Assembly (NCBI GenBank): GCA_024275415.1
Contig: JAJRZD010000049.1
Location: 17,614-49,613 of the forward strand
DNA length: 32,000 bases
Direction of reading: 5' to 3'
Source of the DNA: an archaeon
GTDB lineage: Archaea > Asgardarchaeota > Thorarchaeia > Thorarchaeales > Thorarchaeaceae
Under the pieces are notes generated by a model, which made no database searches, was not told the DNA's origin, and was given only the letters and a program-made list of their open reading frames with translations. Below, one piece after another: positions 12,027 to 24,505 of this stretch; the first letter of the stretch is position 1, and each line of letters starts with the position of its first letter. The translations under genes and the position numbers were made by a program.

Positions 12027-14485
12027 ATATGTCAAGTTCCTGGTTACTCAAGACTCGCCAGATGAGTGAGGCTGGAAAAGAGATTATCCTTTCTGAGGCA
12101 TTAGCGACACATATGCGTAGCCCACGTGACCGGAAATTGGTAATGGGTGAGTTTGCAGAGAAACACCCACTGGAGGATCTTATCTCATTCTTTGGCGCAT
12201 TCTATCTCTATCACTATCAGGGTCTCCGACTTCTCCAAATCGATAGTGCTGACGATTTGTCAATTGAGGAAATGGAGGCGCTCACAAAGAAGGAACGAGA
12301 ACTTCTTGAGGTAGAGGTTCGAATGATGCTCGGAGAGAAGCAGCGAGAAGAGATTGATGTGAGTAGGATCTCCAGTGAGTTCATCGTTTCAATGTGCGAT
12401 TATCTCTTGGGTTCTGTCCCGAAAGATGACCGCGAATCTATCAGTGATGTCATTTCTCTTCTAAAGGATCATTTTCAAATGATTCCGACTTCCTATTCGC
12501 TGAATAGCGAGATTGATTTTATCAACGAGGTCGCCGGATGGGGCAGCACATGGCGTCGTGAACTATATGTTAAGGCATCTGGTCTCAAAGAGGCTGCATT
12601 GTCTCTTCGAGACGAGCTGCTCAAGCCTCATTATGAAGAGATTGTCGAGTCAACGGTTCTCCTGAAAGGGATTGAGAAAATCACAGGCCAAATTCGTCTG
12701 ATGTGCGGAAGGGTATTCACTGACGACCTACCCCGTGAACAGTGGGCGAAGGTCGCAGAGGCCGTCCTAGAACACTTCAGAAACCCCAATGTTTCTCTTC
12801 CTGCGCTCAGAGAAGCCAACCGGATTCGAATCTCAGTGATAGATGTCTTGGAACAGGAGATAGAAACCCCTATGACCTTTGAAGAGTACGAGTCCCTCCT
12901 CGTGAAGGTCATTGTTGAGGGGATAGGAAAGATTCCTGATGGTGTTGATCTTCTTGATACCCTTTCTTATTTTGTTGCAATACCATTGGATGATGTTCGG
13001 GCCGCCTTACGATCCAACAGGATTACGGATCCCTCCACGATCATCGAAGGTCTCAATGCAACCGTTGTTGACATGGACGCGTCAGAATCAGCAGAAACAT
13101 CCGATTCTCCATCGTTGAGTCAAGAAGAACTTGAAGAACTCACGCGAAACATAAGGCGCTTGGAGAAGATAGAGCATACACTGGAGAGACCTGTCAAGGG
13201 TATGTTGAAGGCGAAAGGACTGCGTGCTGCTGAGCTTGACAAGATTTCCATCGAGTTCTTGACTAAGCCCCGTTCATCTCTACTGGGTTTTGAAATCCAA
13301 GTCCTTGAAGAACTCAAGAAAAAAATACGGGTTCCTCCACCTGAGGAAATATCTCGTCTTCTTCAGCTTCGTGAGGAGTTCAAAAGTGGCTCACTTACTG
13401 GAGTTGAAATGTCTAGGTCTTCTGAATTGGGTCGGCAAATCCAGCATGGGAAGCATATGGTGACGCTAAGGGACGACTTGGTTTGGTTCTTTACTATTAG
13501 CATTCTGAAAAATCTTTCACGAGTTATTGAAACATATATCCGATCCAAGCATGACATTCAACGTTCAAAGACTTTGTTGAAAAGCATCTATGAAGACTCG
13601 AATACGCAACTCCAATTCTTGAGAGAAGAGATCTTGATTGACCTGCTGTCAATGAGACTGTACGAGATGAAGATGATTCACCCTGAACTCGATACCCAAA
13701 CAGTCTGCACTTGGTACCACGCTCGTTTGTCCAATACGGATCTCGATACAGCAAAGGAACGACTGGAAACCACCACCTCGCCTGTCTTTGGAGGAGTTGT
13801 CGATATGCCCTTGAAGCTATCCGAACTGAATTATGATAACTATGCCATCGCGTATGATCTTATGCAGAGGTTCCTTGATCGCCAACGGTCAGAACGTGAG
13901 GTTAGAATCGAAATAGTCGCCAAAACAAAAGAGGTTGAGAAGCAGAAGATTGCAGAGAAGAAGGCAGGCCTCGATGTCATGAATTTCATTTATACGAAGG
14001 CACACACCGTCTTCAGGGCTATCGGACGAGTCGGCGCCCGAGGCCTTGAATGGAACGCTAATGATGATGCGAAATGTGCGAACCTTTTGGCTTTCTTCCT
14101 CAACACAAGCCGCGGGCGTTCGATATGTGCTGTATGTGGTGAGGTTGCAAAGGATGGTGCCTGCAGTCTGCATGGCAAGGGACAGGTGAATGTTTCAAAT
14201 GACATCGACAATCTTTCGTGGTTTGTGATGCGTGCCCATACGGACATTAAAGAAGGATTGCTCGGTGCCAAGGCGGAACCTATGAGCTGGTCAGATGCAC
14301 GACAGATTGTCCAGAGGGAACTTGCCAATCTAAGACGACGCGGAAAAATCACGAGCAAAACCAACCCCAAGGAAATGATGCCCGGGGAAATCAACTACAT
14401 AGTGGGTCCTGCAATAGCGCGAGTAATCGGCAAATACTTCAATGAATCCTTGGAATATGCCGCTCGACGTGCTGGAATCGCCTAA
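12023..14485 (+). CDS. Large unknown alpha-helical protein (820 aa) with a C-terminal C2-CH zinc knuckle
   Basis: Long ORF coupled to the upstream gene by an ATGA overlap. CAVC-x8-CSLH lies at 14126-14173. Confidence 0.87.
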   Translation: MNMSSSWLLKTRQMSEAGKEIILSEALATHMRSPRDRKLVMGEFAEKHPLEDLISFFGAFYLYHYQGLRLLQIDSADDLSIEEMEALTKKERELLEVEVRMMLGEKQREEIDVSRISSEFIVSMCDYLLGSVPKDDRESISDVISLLKDHFQMIPTSYSLNSEIDFINEVAGWGSTWRRELYVKASGLKEAALSLRDELLKPHYEEIVESTVLLKGIEKITGQIRLMCGRVFTDDLPREQWAKVAEAVLEHFRNPNVSLPALREANRIRISVIDVLEQEIETPMTFEEYESLLVKVIVEGIGKIPDGVDLLDTLSYFVAIPLDDVRAALRSNRITDPSTIIEGLNATVVDMDASESAETSDSPSLSQEELEELTRNIRRLEKIEHTLERPVKGMLKAKGLRAAELDKISIEFLTKPRSSLLGFEIQVLEELKKKIRVPPPEEISRLLQLREEFKSGSLTGVEMSRSSELGRQIQHGKHMVTLRDDLVWFFTISILKNLSRVIETYIRSKHDIQRSKTLLKSIYEDSNTQLQFLREEILIDLLSMRLYEMKMIHPELDTQTVCTWYHARLSNTDLDTAKERLETTTSPVFGGVVDMPLKLSELNYDNYAIAYDLMQRFLDRQRSEREVRIEIVAKTKEVEKQKIAEKKAGLDVMNFIYTKAHTVFRAIGRVGARGLEWNANDDAKCANLLAFFLNTSRGRSICAVCGEVAKDGACSLHGKGQVNVSNDIDNLSWFVMRAHTDIKEGLLGAKAEPMSWSDARQIVQRELANLRRRGKITSKTNPKEMMPGEINYIVGPAIARVIGKYFNESLEYAARRAGIA

Positions 14486-22178: not shown

Positions 22179-23465
22179 ATGAAGGCGCTTGTATTAACAG
22201 CTGGGATTGGCAATCGACTCCGACCACTGACAGCAAAGCGATCAAAATCGATGCTTATGATCGCTGGGAAGCCAGTACTGAGCTACATTTTTGAGAGTCT
22301 AAAAGAAAACGGGATCAAAGATGTGGTCGTTGTCACTGGTCACGGCAGGGAGGAGATAATAAACCGATTCCAGCATGGTGGTAATCTTGGTATCAAAATC
22401 AGGTATGCCCTCCAGCACAAGCAGAAAGGAGTAGAGAATGCAATCCTGACAGCAAAGGACGAACTTGAATCAGAAGAAGAATTCCTGCTCATCAATGGCG
22501 ATGTCCTAGTTGAGCCTGACATGATCCGCCGCACTCTAGGCAGCCATGAATCCATGGACGCGCATACAACCATGCTGGTGACGCTTGTTTCGAACCCGCA
22601 ACAGTTTGGCACAGTAAAGATTGGGAAGAATGGTATGGTCGAAAAGCTTGTGGAGAAGGGCGGTCCAGAACGCTATGTCAGCAATTATGCAGTTGCCGGG
22701 GTTTCCGTTTTCAATTCTGAGATTTTGACCTATCTTGAGAAATACAAGACCATGGAGAATGCAGTAGAGCACATGATTACCACAAAGCAAAACGTTGTGG
22801 CTTGTGTCTGGGAAAAGGAATGGGCCGAGTTCACTTGGCCATGGGATATCCTGAAAGCAAACAGAATCGTCATGGATCGGAAGCTGAAAGGAAAAGGGAG
22901 TTATATTTCTGAAACAGCAGATATCCATGACAGTGTAACAATCGAAGGCCCGGTGTATATTGATGATGCTGCTGTCATTCGTCCTCACTCTTCAGTAAAA
23001 GGACCCGTCTGGATAGGAAAGCGTGTCTTTATCGGCAATAATTCGCTTGTCCGCGATTATGCGAGCCTATGTGAGGATGTCCACATCGGGTATTCCGTAG
23101 AGATACGGAATAGTATGATCTTTGACAAGGTAGATGTGGGCAGGATGACCTACATAGCTGACTCTCTCATTGGGGCAGGGAGCTGTATCGAGGCTGGGGC
23201 ACAGCTCTGGAACTGGAGACCTGGAAGCGAACCTTTCTATCTTGATACAAATGGGAATAAGGTACAGATCCCACTAAGCAAGTTTGGAGCGATTATCGGA
23301 GACAGTGTAGTCATTGGCGTGAATACCTCCATATATCCAGCCCGCAGGATAGGTGAAGGTAGTTTCATTGCTCCCGGTTGTGTGATTGACCGAGACATCC
23401 CGCCCTACAGCGAAGTCCATATGAAACAGGAGTTAATCCTTTCAGAAAGGACTTCGAAGTGCTAG
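22179..23465 (+). CDS. Sugar-phosphate nucleotidyltransferase with a left-handed beta-helix (archaeal GlmU-like)
   Basis: MKALVLTAGIGNRLRPLT...K...GKPVL and NGD, then hexapeptide repeats (IEGPVYI...VKGPVWIG...GAIIGDSVVIGVN). Confidence 0.9.
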   Translation: MKALVLTAGIGNRLRPLTAKRSKSMLMIAGKPVLSYIFESLKENGIKDVVVVTGHGREEIINRFQHGGNLGIKIRYALQHKQKGVENAILTAKDELESEEEFLLINGDVLVEPDMIRRTLGSHESMDAHTTMLVTLVSNPQQFGTVKIGKNGMVEKLVEKGGPERYVSNYAVAGVSVFNSEILTYLEKYKTMENAVEHMITTKQNVVACVWEKEWAEFTWPWDILKANRIVMDRKLKGKGSYISETADIHDSVTIEGPVYIDDAAVIRPHSSVKGPVWIGKRVFIGNNSLVRDYASLCEDVHIGYSVEIRNSMIFDKVDVGRMTYIADSLIGAGSCIEAGAQLWNWRPGSEPFYLDTNGNKVQIPLSKFGAIIGDSVVIGVNTSIYPARRIGEGSFIAPGCVIDRDIPPYSEVHMKQELILSERTSKC

Positions 23466-23594
23466 TGACCCTGCCAAACCACATACCAACACATTCCAAG
23501 TGTAGAAGCGACGTAAACCTATGAGCATCTTTTTAAGCCAAACTCTAGACAATGGCGATGAACTGCGGAACAAGATTAATGGAGAGTAATTACT

Positions 23595-24485
23595 ATTAGC
23601 CGCAAGAAATGGGGAAAATCTACCATAAAGACCGAGAAGGTTATCCGTGCTGCAATTCCAAAACCAGAAACATTGGCAGAGATTGACCAATACCTGAGCA
23701 AAGCACGATCTATAACTCCGTACGATTTGGCAAATCGATTTGGAATTCGGATGAGCGTAGCTCGAAAACTGTTACGTCAGAAAGAAACAGAAGGAGTAGT
23801 GGTGCCTTATATCCGCGGAGGCGGCTTTGTTGTGTATTCTACCCCTGCTGAGATTGCTAGGCGTGAAGGAGGCACTCCTATAATGACTGCGGATGTCTTG
23901 AAGGAGATATCATCATCAGTTTCACATGAAACTGTATTCGATGAAGAGATGGAAGCCGCTCTTGCCGCTGCTGCTTCTTCAGCCGGAACTATCGTCAAGC
24001 CTAGTAAATTGGCAAGAAAGCGACGTGAGGTCGGCGAGAGAAAAGAACGAAAGGAAACGCGTCCTGAAATAGTAGTTGAGCCTCTGACAGAGGAAACACC
24101 TCCAGTCCCAGAACCCCCCAAGGTGGAGGAGAAACCCAAGGAGGCTGCTAAGAAACCAAAGAAGGAAGAAAAGCCCAAGAAGGCTGCTCCAAAGACAGAA
24201 CCAAAGAAGGCTGACAAGAAACCCAAAAAGGAATCCAAGACAACTGCCAAAAAACCTGCGGCCAAGAAGGTTCGCAAACCAGAACTCGTTGATATCGAGG
24301 GTGTTGGTCCCAAAAAGGCAGAGAAAATTCGAGAAAGCGGTTTCAAGACTGTTGCAGCAATATCCAAGACCACAGCTGAAAAGCTCTCCAAGAAAGTTTC
24401 GGGAATCTCAGAGACCACAGCTCAGCATTACATCGATTCAGCCAAGAAACTAATTGAAGAATATGAAAAGGCCAAGGCACAATAG
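23595..24485 (+). CDS. rps25e: 30S ribosomal protein eS25 fused via a K/E/P/A linker to a helix-hairpin-helix domain; probable ATT start
   Basis: RKKWGK...ITPYDLANRFGIRMSVARKLL...GVV...VVY is the eS25 winged helix. C-terminal LVDIEGVGPKKAEKIRESGF...VSGISETTA is HhH-like. No ATG/GTG/TTG lies in frame between the TAA at 23577 and the TTG at 23673. Confidence 0.85.
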   Translation: MSRKKWGKSTIKTEKVIRAAIPKPETLAEIDQYLSKARSITPYDLANRFGIRMSVARKLLRQKETEGVVVPYIRGGGFVVYSTPAEIARREGGTPIMTADVLKEISSSVSHETVFDEEMEAALAAAASSAGTIVKPSKLARKRREVGERKERKETRPEIVVEPLTEETPPVPEPPKVEEKPKEAAKKPKKEEKPKKAAPKTEPKKADKKPKKESKTTAKKPAAKKVRKPELVDIEGVGPKKAEKIRESGFKTVAAISKTTAEKLSKKVSGISETTAQHYIDSAKKLIEEYEKAKAQ

Positions 24486-24505
24486 AACGCAACTCGCGGT
24501 GATAC

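What the first reader, a model, noticed from the sequence alone, without database searches (positions are those of the whole stretch)
23577..23675. Ribosomal protein eS25 appears to initiate at a non-AUG (ATT) codon
Seen: the frame upstream of the track's TTG (23673) encodes SRKKWGKSTIKTEKVIRAAIPKPET, matching the conserved basic KKKW(S/G)K segment of eS25 and preceded by a stop at 23577-23579. No ATG/GTG/TTG lies in between. ATT codons sit at 23589 and 23595, downstream of an SD-like GGAG (23581-23584); ATT 23595 gives MSRKKWGK. A 22-codon upstream ORF (23521-23589) ends with TAA overlapping ATT 23589 (TAATT, like TAATG coupling). Established: bacterial infC uses AUU for autoregulation by start-codon stringency, and eukaryotic eS25 acts in non-canonical initiation. 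Inference: possible initiation-fidelity feedback on a ribosomal protein gene.
Basis: partly seen in the sequence, partly recalled or inferred. Interest (0 to 1): 0.72.

Follow-up and report, generated by a model that had tools for sequence, protein, structure and literature searches.

The report
eS25 gene starts at ATT/ATC
In this Thorarchaeota (Asgard archaeon) genome and about 35-40 related species, the only gene for ribosomal protein eS25 has no ATG/GTG/TTG start and almost certainly begins at a weak ATT or ATC codon behind a strong ribosome-binding site. This is a real, conserved example of a known oddity, and it makes gene callers truncate the protein.

Summary
TAA lies at 23577-23579. 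The frame then reads WRVITISRKKWGK with no ATG/GTG/TTG before TTG 23673, and Pfam's eS25 model already matches from RKKWGK.

The window comes from a Thorarchaeota genome. Of 54 distinct Thorarchaeota eS25 loci, 35 have no in-frame canonical start between the upstream stop and the Ser codon. Forty carry GGAG(A/T)GTAAT-Y NCY ATY AGY. In nine loci (about seven lineages) the codon matching 23595 is ATG, GTG or TTG. In three loci the codon matching 23589 is ATG.

The first 25 codons are under purifying selection (pN/pS 0.18). Both ATY positions exclude ATA and any amino-acid change, unlike true Ile codons of the same genes.

Genome-wide, GGAG-to-start spacing peaks at 8-12 nt. This favours ATT 23595 (10 nt) over ATT 23589 (4 nt). 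The initiator tRNA is an ordinary CAU tRNA.

The "uORF" ATG 23521 sits in a conserved TATA-like promoter block, and its frame and stop vary, so coupling is not supported. The feedback idea remains untested.

GenBank already starts a congeneric CDS at this ATT. A paper infers an ATT start in another Asgard gene, and this scan has noted similar cases on other DNA. Verdict: a real new member of a known kind.

The parts
23521..23537 (+). Conserved upstream block ATGAGCATC + TTTTTAAG (TTTAAAAG in most relatives). Read as the promoter (TATA box with its upstream element).
   Evidence: Present in 52 of 54 loci at 54-59 nt from the start codon. It varies like a TATA box (AA<->TT swaps) rather than like codons. 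TATA-type hexamers are 4-8x enriched at -70..-15 of long ORFs in this genome. Nothing upstream of it is conserved. That this block is the promoter is an inference, and no 5'-end data exist.
23552..23563 (+). Conserved block (consensus TTCGCGNTGAMC) about 15-25 nt after the TATA-like motif. Probable transcription start region.
   Evidence: Alignment A3. Inferred from the usual archaeal TATA-to-start distance (established knowledge); not measured.
23581..23591 (+). Shine-Dalgarno GGAG (23581-23584), possibly extended as GGAGAGTAATT, which includes the first ATT (23589-23591).
   Evidence: GGAG[A/T]GTAAT is invariant in 40/40 non-canonical loci. The 16S 3' end in the family is GGAUCACCUCCU. The predicted duplex AGGAG(A)GU(A)AUY with the anti-SD scores -7.9 to -10.5 kcal/mol, against -6.2 for the core alone.
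23595..23597 (+). ATT, the proposed initiation codon (ATC in most relatives).
   Evidence: Homologous to ATG/GTG/TTG in nine relatives, and ATT/ATC in 43 of 54 loci. It lies 10 nt from GGAG, where the genome-wide peak is 8-12 nt. The three-base codon periodicity of variation begins right after it. A GenBank CDS of a congeneric genome starts here.
23595..24485 (+). Full eS25 coding sequence (296 codons): eS25 winged-helix domain, Lys/Pro/Ala-rich linker, C-terminal helix-hairpin-helix domain.
   Evidence: Pfam PF03297 and PF14520. Single eS25 copy in the genome. pN/pS 0.18-0.24.
23673..23675 (+). TTG, the first canonical start codon in frame. Not the real start.
   Evidence: It would remove the conserved SRKKWGK...PKPET segment. 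It is not conserved: the first downstream canonical codon lies 14-51 codons in among relatives, and in 16 of them it lies inside the winged helix.
23751..23753 (+). ATG used by the public gene call for this very contig (244-aa product, P0002). It truncates the protein by 52 codons.

Best explanation
The single eS25 gene of this Thorarchaeota genome is transcribed from its own promoter (TATA-like TTTTTAAG at 23530-23537), giving a 5' leader of roughly 30-40 nt. Its Shine-Dalgarno sequence (GGAG 23581-23584, probably extended through GTAATT) pairs with the 16S 3' end. That pairing places the ordinary CAU initiator tRNA over the near-cognate codon AUU at 23595-23597. The product would be Met-Ser-Arg-Lys-Lys-Trp-Gly-Lys..., 296 residues long. 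The weak start codon is a conserved, selected feature of the family: ATT or ATC in about 40 of 54 species-level genomes. It most likely holds down or tunes the output of this protein.

Shown: there is no canonical start; the upstream segment is coding; the codon is homologous to canonical starts elsewhere; the SD geometry fits; the initiator tRNA is normal.

Inferred: that initiation really occurs at 23595 rather than 23589, that Met is inserted, the promoter and transcription start assignment, and the purpose (dosage tuning).
For: 1. No ATG/GTG/TTG lies between TAA 23577 and TTG 23673. The same holds in 35 of 54 distinct Thorarchaeota loci, where the open window before Ser is as short as 6 codons.
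2. Codons 1-25 after the ATT have pN/pS 0.18. They belong to the Pfam eS25 match and align with the KKW motif of solved eS25 chains.
3. At the position of 23595, relatives have ATG (L013, L073, L028), GTG (L027) or TTG (L019, L025, L029, L057, L079). Several of these have a stop 1-3 codons upstream. L057 (TTG) is nested in an ATT_ATC clade and carries a 1-nt deletion that puts the first ATT out of frame.
4. In this genome the GGAG-to-start distance peaks at 8-12 nt (95, 89, 55, 57 and 32 cases) and is at background at 4 nt (16 cases). ATT 23595 is at 10 nt. Canonical relatives sit at 9-13 nt.
5. Both ATY positions show 0/40 ATA and no amino-acid replacement. Five conserved Ile columns of the same genes in the same genomes each show ATA (5-33%) and Val/Leu replacements, and ATA makes up 21-22% of Ile codons.
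6. The initiator tRNA (C43, A1:U72, GGG/CCC stem) has anticodon CAU, and no GAU variant was found in five family genomes.
7. GenBank's CDS in a congeneric genome begins at this ATT. This is an algorithmic call, not an experiment.
8. Precedent: a likely ATT start with a well-placed RBS was inferred for an Asgard tubulin gene (PMC13394414).
Against: There is no direct evidence of the N-terminus or of the transcript 5' end. No sequencing run could be listed, and no proteomics exist.

The first ATT (23589) is as strictly conserved as the second. It is ATG in three relatives (L020, L022, L023), and GenBank annotators chose it in several genomes (MTISRKKW...). It therefore cannot be excluded as the start or as a second start.

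Near-cognate codons usually initiate at a few per cent of AUG efficiency in tested systems (my own knowledge of bacterial and yeast reporter data). That is odd for a ribosomal protein needed in bulk.

Genome-wide, ATT/ATC/ATA/CTG behind an SD are not enriched (odds ratio 1.17, p = 0.27). The organism does not use such starts generally.
Confidence: 0.66

Rival explanations
1. Initiation is at the first ATT (23589), giving Met-Thr-Ile-Ser-Arg-Lys-Lys-Trp, or at both ATT codons. The second ATY would then be an ordinary but strictly kept Ile codon.
For: The first ATY is invariant apart from T/C in 40/40 loci and is ATG in L020, L022 and L023. T/C wobble-type variation begins at this codon, while GTA just before it never varies. 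Several GenBank CDS start here.
Against: It lies only 4 nt from GGAG, a distance at background level in this genome. In nine relatives the canonical start is at the second position and the first position is not conserved or is out of frame (L057, L019). Its conservation, including the T/C-only third base, is explained by pairing with the G of the anti-SD in an extended SD duplex. That duplex recurs as AGGAGAGTCATC in L027, which starts at GTG further on.
Confidence: 0.22
2. Translation of eS25 depends on the upstream 22-codon ORF (23521-23589). This would work by termination-reinitiation at the TAATT overlap or by a programmed frameshift from that ORF into the eS25 frame.
For: In 28 of 54 loci an ORF from the conserved ATG ends at the TAA overlapping the first ATY. 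In L020 and L022 it is in frame with eS25.
Against: The ATG lies directly upstream of a TATA-like motif of the type enriched in promoter regions, so it is probably not transcribed. Four loci lack the ATG. The ORF occupies all three frames (33/10/7) and has 15 different stop positions, and the closest relative L009 differs in frame. Sequence variation in the block is not codon-like. There is no slippery site at GGA GAG TAA. No conserved RNA structure was found between -110 and +45.
Confidence: 0.04
3. The gene starts at a downstream canonical codon (TTG 23673 or ATG 23751), and the upstream conserved segment is untranslated or a relic. Alternatively, ATT is an assembly error for ATG.
For: Gene callers chose ATG 23751 for this contig, and downstream starts in about half of the database homologues.
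Against: pN/pS of the upstream segment is 0.18, and it carries the eS25 KKW motif. Downstream canonical codons are not conserved and often lie inside the winged helix. ATT/ATC recurs in about 40 independent assemblies.
Confidence: 0.03

Closest known systems
AUU-initiated bacterial genes infC (IF3) and pcnB of E. coli
   Same: An SD-led gene of the translation apparatus whose conserved start codon is the near-cognate AUU. Gene callers mis-set its start.
   Different: The domain differs (archaeal aIF1/aIF1A/aIF2 machinery rather than IF3). The codon alternates between AUU and AUC across species. No evidence exists here for factor-dependent autoregulation, which is the defining property of infC.
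Inferred ATT start of Asgard (Kariarchaeaceae) tubulin gene atubA (PMC13394414)
   Same: An Asgard archaeon. A conserved N-terminus lies upstream of the annotated start, and a rare ATT sits at a plausible distance from a ribosome-binding site. It was inferred from sequence and structure prediction only.
   Different: That is a single gene in one genome. Here the feature is kept across a whole family (about 40 species-level genomes) and concerns a ribosomal protein.
Canonical eS25 genes of other Asgard and TACK archaea and of eukaryotes
   Same: The same protein family (PF03297) with a KKW-type basic N-terminal segment and a winged helix.
   Different: Other-family Asgard genomes examined (L031-L037) have ATG starts. 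The Thorarchaeota protein starts right at the KKW motif, lacks the roughly 20-residue Lys-rich tail of eukaryotic and crenarchaeal eS25, and carries a C-terminal HhH extension.

Membership tests
Ribosomal protein eS25 (Pfam PF03297) | Significant match to the family profile above the curated cut-off | tested here: met
   43.5 bits against a cut-off of 28.8, residues 8-87 of P0001. phmmer hits to eS25 chains of solved archaeal and eukaryotic ribosomes, E 6e-8 to 6e-3.
Ribosomal protein eS25 (Pfam PF03297) | Basic KKW(S/G/T)K segment preceding the winged helix | tested here: met
   RKKWGK aligns to RKKWTK (5xyi_Z) and KKKWGD (7qep_D5).
Ribosomal protein eS25 (Pfam PF03297) | It is the organism's eS25 gene rather than a spare paralogue | tested here: met
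   Only one eS25-type match in the 92.9%-complete genome. The other hits are to the HhH part.
SD-led initiation at a near-cognate (AUU/AUC) start codon | No in-frame ATG/GTG/TTG between the upstream stop and the conserved, selected N-terminus | tested here: met
   35 of 54 loci; pN/pS 0.18.
SD-led initiation at a near-cognate (AUU/AUC) start codon | The candidate codon is positionally homologous to canonical start codons in relatives | tested here: met
   ATG/GTG/TTG at the same alignment column in nine loci.
SD-led initiation at a near-cognate (AUU/AUC) start codon | Shine-Dalgarno motif at the organism's usual distance | tested here: met
   GGAG lies 10 nt upstream. The genome-wide peak is 8-12 nt. 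The anti-SD CCUCCU is present in family 16S.
SD-led initiation at a near-cognate (AUU/AUC) start codon | Experimentally determined N-terminus or initiating-ribosome position | not testable with these tools
   No RNA or DNA run could be listed. No proteomics are accessible.
infC-type autoregulation through start-codon stringency | Expression from the AUU responds inversely to the level of the fidelity factor or of the gene's own product | not testable with these tools
   Needs reporter or in vitro translation assays. The only related fact here is that aIF1 of this genome has a normal SD-led GTG start.
uORF termination-reinitiation coupling | A conserved, transcribed upstream ORF whose stop overlaps or abuts the main start in a conserved register | tested here: not met
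   Frame and stop vary. The ATG lies upstream of the TATA-like motif.
Dedicated initiator tRNA matching the odd start codon | An initiator-like tRNA with anticodon GAU | tested here: not met
   The initiator tRNA has CAU. The pattern GGGCTNATAACCC gave only CAT in three relatives. tRNA-Ile(GAU) has no initiator features.

The most novel reading that the evidence does not exclude
The weak AUU/AUC start is a regulatory device rather than a simple throttle. Because eS25 sits next to the initiator tRNA and E site on eukaryote-type small subunits (PMC7531240), ribosomes lacking eS25, or changes in aIF1 level, could alter acceptance of the near-cognate codon. The cell would then sense eS25 occupancy or initiation stringency and adjust synthesis of the eS25-HhH protein. 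This would be an archaeal counterpart of infC autoregulation, and possibly a source of ribosomes that are sub-stoichiometric in eS25.
Probability: 0.1. Interest if true: 0.75.

Novelty: new member of a known kind. Interest (0 to 1): 0.42.

Why it matters
Practical: about half of the database homologues of Thorarchaeota eS25, including the one from this contig, are truncated. Others are labelled 'hypothetical' or 'HhH domain protein'. This can make eS25 look absent or partial in Asgard ribosomal-protein surveys and marker sets.

Biological: it shows that an Asgard lineage has kept a near-cognate start on a core ribosomal protein gene over family-level divergence, repeatedly swapping ATT and ATC while avoiding ATA. 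That implies selection for a weak start. The leader (SD plus AUY) is a defined substrate for testing start-codon stringency of the archaeal/eukaryote-type initiation machinery (aIF1, aIF1A, aIF2).

It is not a new mechanism. Near-cognate starts are known, one has been inferred in another Asgard gene (PMC13394414), and this scan has logged similar cases in other archaea.

Tried and rejected
- Sequencing runs: none was listed for 23300-24500 (kind any) or 23500-24490 (kind rna). The read-level check for ATG/ATT and any 5'-end mapping could therefore not be done.
- Conserved RNA structure in -110..+45: RNAalifold on 22 sequences gave no pairs. A structured leader or IRES-like element was rejected.
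- Special initiator tRNA with GAU anticodon: rejected. ARAGORN misses most tRNAs here because of introns. The initiator was found by pattern search and has CAU.
- Generally relaxed start-codon use in this genome: not seen. ATT/ATC/ATA/CTG behind GGAG or GGAGG/GGTGA are not enriched over other non-start codons. A few single candidates exist (see Noticed in passing).
- Own 16S 3' end: the gene is truncated at a contig end, so relatives were used instead.
- The search for related loci with the 17-sequence alignment failed for lack of a conserved stretch. It was repeated with 7 closer sequences.
- TTTWWAAG itself is too rare upstream of SD-led genes for a positional test. A hexamer-enrichment test was used instead.
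- aIF1 start codon as a co-varying feature: an ordinary GTG.
- Literature: no paper was found on eS25 start codons in archaea.

Full report
**What is in the sequence**

TAA lies at 23577-23579. The in-frame codons that follow are TGG AGA GTA ATT ACT ATT AGC CGC AAG AAA TGG GGA AAA. The frame stays open to 24485, and its first ATG/GTG/TTG is TTG 23673.

Pfam's eS25 model (PF03297) scores 43.5 bits against a cut-off of 28.8. The match begins at RKKWGK, 24 codons before that TTG. The C-terminus carries an HHH_5 domain. RKKWGK aligns with the KKW motif of eS25 chains in solved ribosomes. The genome (3.5 Mb, 92.9% complete) has only this one eS25 gene.

**Whose genome**

Record titles of 46 related loci name Candidatus Thorarchaeota / Promethearchaeota, that is, Asgard archaea.

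**Comparative picture**

I collected 70 loci, 54 of them distinct.

- 40 read GGAG[A/T]GTAAT-Y NCY ATY AGY CGN AAR AAR TGG.
- 35 of the 54 have no in-frame canonical start anywhere between the upstream stop and the Ser codon. That window can be as short as six codons.
- Five more have only a non-conserved GTG or TTG further upstream, before or inside the SD.
- At the column of 23595 the codon is ATC or ATT in 43 loci, ATG in 3, GTG in 1 and TTG in 5.
- At the column of 23589 it is ATT or ATC in 40 and ATG in 3.

On a tree of the eS25 domain, poorly resolved at its base, canonical versions are scattered among non-canonical clades. L057 (TTG) is nested in an ATT_ATC clade (support 98/81). It has a 1-nt deletion that puts the first ATT out of frame. 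Genomes of other Asgard families that I looked at have ordinary ATG starts. These genomes are kin, so the counts are not independent events.

**Is the upstream segment translated?**

Across the 40 non-canonical genomes, codons 1-25 (23598-23672) have pS 0.72 and pN 0.13, giving pN/pS 0.18. The next 50 codons give 0.24.

Per-column variation shows clean three-base periodicity starting right after 23597. From 23581 to 23590 almost nothing varies, including would-be third codon positions.

Downstream canonical codons are not conserved. They lie 14-51 codons in, and in 16 genomes the first one is inside the winged helix. A downstream start or a pseudogene is therefore not tenable. Recurrence in about 40 independent assemblies excludes an assembly error.

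**Which ATT?**

In this genome the distance from GGAG to the start of long ORFs peaks at 8-12 nt (95, 89, 55, 57 and 32 cases). At 4 nt it is at background (16 cases). ATT 23595 is 10 nt from GGAG and ATT 23589 is 4 nt. Relatives with canonical starts at the second position sit 9-13 nt from GGAG.

The 16S 3' end in the family is GGAUCACCUCCU. The minimum-energy duplex pairs AGGAG, bulges A, then pairs GU and AUY. It scores -7.9 kcal/mol (ATT) or -10.5 (ATC), against -6.2 for the core alone. This would explain why GTAAT-Y is frozen, and why its last base is only T or C, since it pairs with a G. The same pattern, AGGAGAGTCATC, precedes the GTG start of L027.

A phylogeny-matched control shows that both ATY positions are special. 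ATA is 0/40 at each and no amino-acid replacement occurs. Five conserved Ile columns of the same genes each contain ATA (5-33%) and Val/Leu replacements, and ATA makes up 21-22% of Ile codons.

I therefore favour 23595. I cannot exclude 23589 or dual use, because three relatives have ATG there and GenBank pipelines chose it in several genomes.

**Decoding**

The initiator tRNA is normal. It lies on contig C43 and has A1:U72, a GGG/CCC anticodon stem, anticodon CAU and two introns. Relatives show only CAT in the initiator anticodon-loop pattern. tRNA-Ile(GAU) has no initiator features. AUU and AUC would thus be read by third-position mismatch, as in other near-cognate starts.

Such starts are not general here. 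ATT/ATC/ATA/CTG behind an SD are not enriched (odds ratio 1.17, p = 0.27), though a few single candidates exist.

**The upstream ORF**

The ATG 23521 belongs to a block ATGAGCATC-TTTWWAAG, conserved in 52 of 54 loci and placed 54-59 nt before the start.

- The block varies like a TATA box (TTTAAAAG/TTTTTAAG) and not like codons.
- TATA-type hexamers contained in it are 4-8x enriched at -70..-15 of long ORFs in this genome.
- Nothing upstream of it is conserved.
- Four loci lack the ATG.
- The ORF lies in frames 2, 1 and 0 in 33, 10 and 7 loci and stops at 15 different places.
- The nearest relative (L009) already differs in frame.

TAA and TAG inside GAGTAATTACTATTAG close the two other frames automatically, so the TAATT overlap is a by-product.

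No conserved RNA structure was found. Coupling, frameshifting and IRES-like readings are therefore unlikely. The promoter reading itself is an inference without 5'-end data.

**What is known already**

- aIF1 discriminates against non-canonical starts in archaea (PMC6237735).
- eS25 is one of three small-subunit proteins shared by TACK/Asgard archaea and eukaryotes, and it contacts the initiator tRNA in eukaryotic complexes (PMC7531240).
- A rare ATT start with a well-placed RBS was inferred for an Asgard tubulin gene (PMC13394414).
- GenBank's CDS in the congeneric record JBHLQM010000006.1 starts at the second ATT.
- The gene call for this very contig starts at ATG 23751 and loses 52 codons.
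- Earlier notes of this scan describe comparable conserved ATT/ATC/CTG starts in methanogens, Bathyarchaeia and another genome with Asgard-type genes. I did not re-test those.
- I found no paper on eS25 start codons.

**Verdict**

A conserved near-cognate start is well supported by comparative evidence, though not by experiment. The exact codon is probably 23595. uORF coupling is rejected. The fidelity-feedback idea is an untested speculation, to which I give about 10%. This is a solid new member of a known kind. It is useful for annotation and as a test substrate for archaeal start-codon selection, and it is moderately interesting.

Noticed in passing
window 23850-24485: eS25 is fused to a Lys/Pro/Ala-rich linker and a C-terminal helix-hairpin-helix domain (HHH_5, 46.9 bits). 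Most Thorarchaeota homologues share this, and many are labelled 'HhH domain protein', 'histone H1/5' or 'flap endonuclease-like' in databases.
   Followed up: partly
G000 contig C21:152486-153043 (+) = L093:201-758: A small Ras/Rab-like GTPase whose P-loop (GEGGVGKT) lies upstream of the first canonical start. TAGGAGG-8 nt-ATT is the only plausible start. Paralogues and orthologues in relatives have ATG/TTG/GTG there, so this ATT is not conserved.
   Followed up: partly
G000 contigs C63:3218-3766 (-), C10:53560-55827 (+), C116:691-1695 (+), C21:72577-72999 (-): Further single candidates for SD-led non-canonical starts: a GTPase (GGAGG-7-CTG), a 756-aa HhH protein (AGGAGG-9-ATA), an integrase (AGGAGG-9-CTG) and a DUF86-like protein (AGGAGG-8-ATA).
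   Followed up: no
G000 contig C43, minus strand, from position 12108 of the reverse complement: The initiator tRNA (A1:U72, CAU) carries two introns, one in the D-arm region and one after position 37/38. ARAGORN finds only 16-23 tRNAs in this genome, against 31 by the Rfam model.
   Followed up: partly
L087 (G014:C2:589938-592348): The 16S rRNA match spans 2411 nt for a 1478-position model, suggesting a large insertion or intron in the rRNA gene of this relative.
   Followed up: no
window 23552-23563 and relatives (alignment A3 columns ~75-88): A 12-nt block TTCGCGNTGAMC between the TATA-like motif and the SD is conserved beyond what a simple initiator element needs. It could be the 5' end of the mRNA or a protein-binding site.
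   Followed up: no
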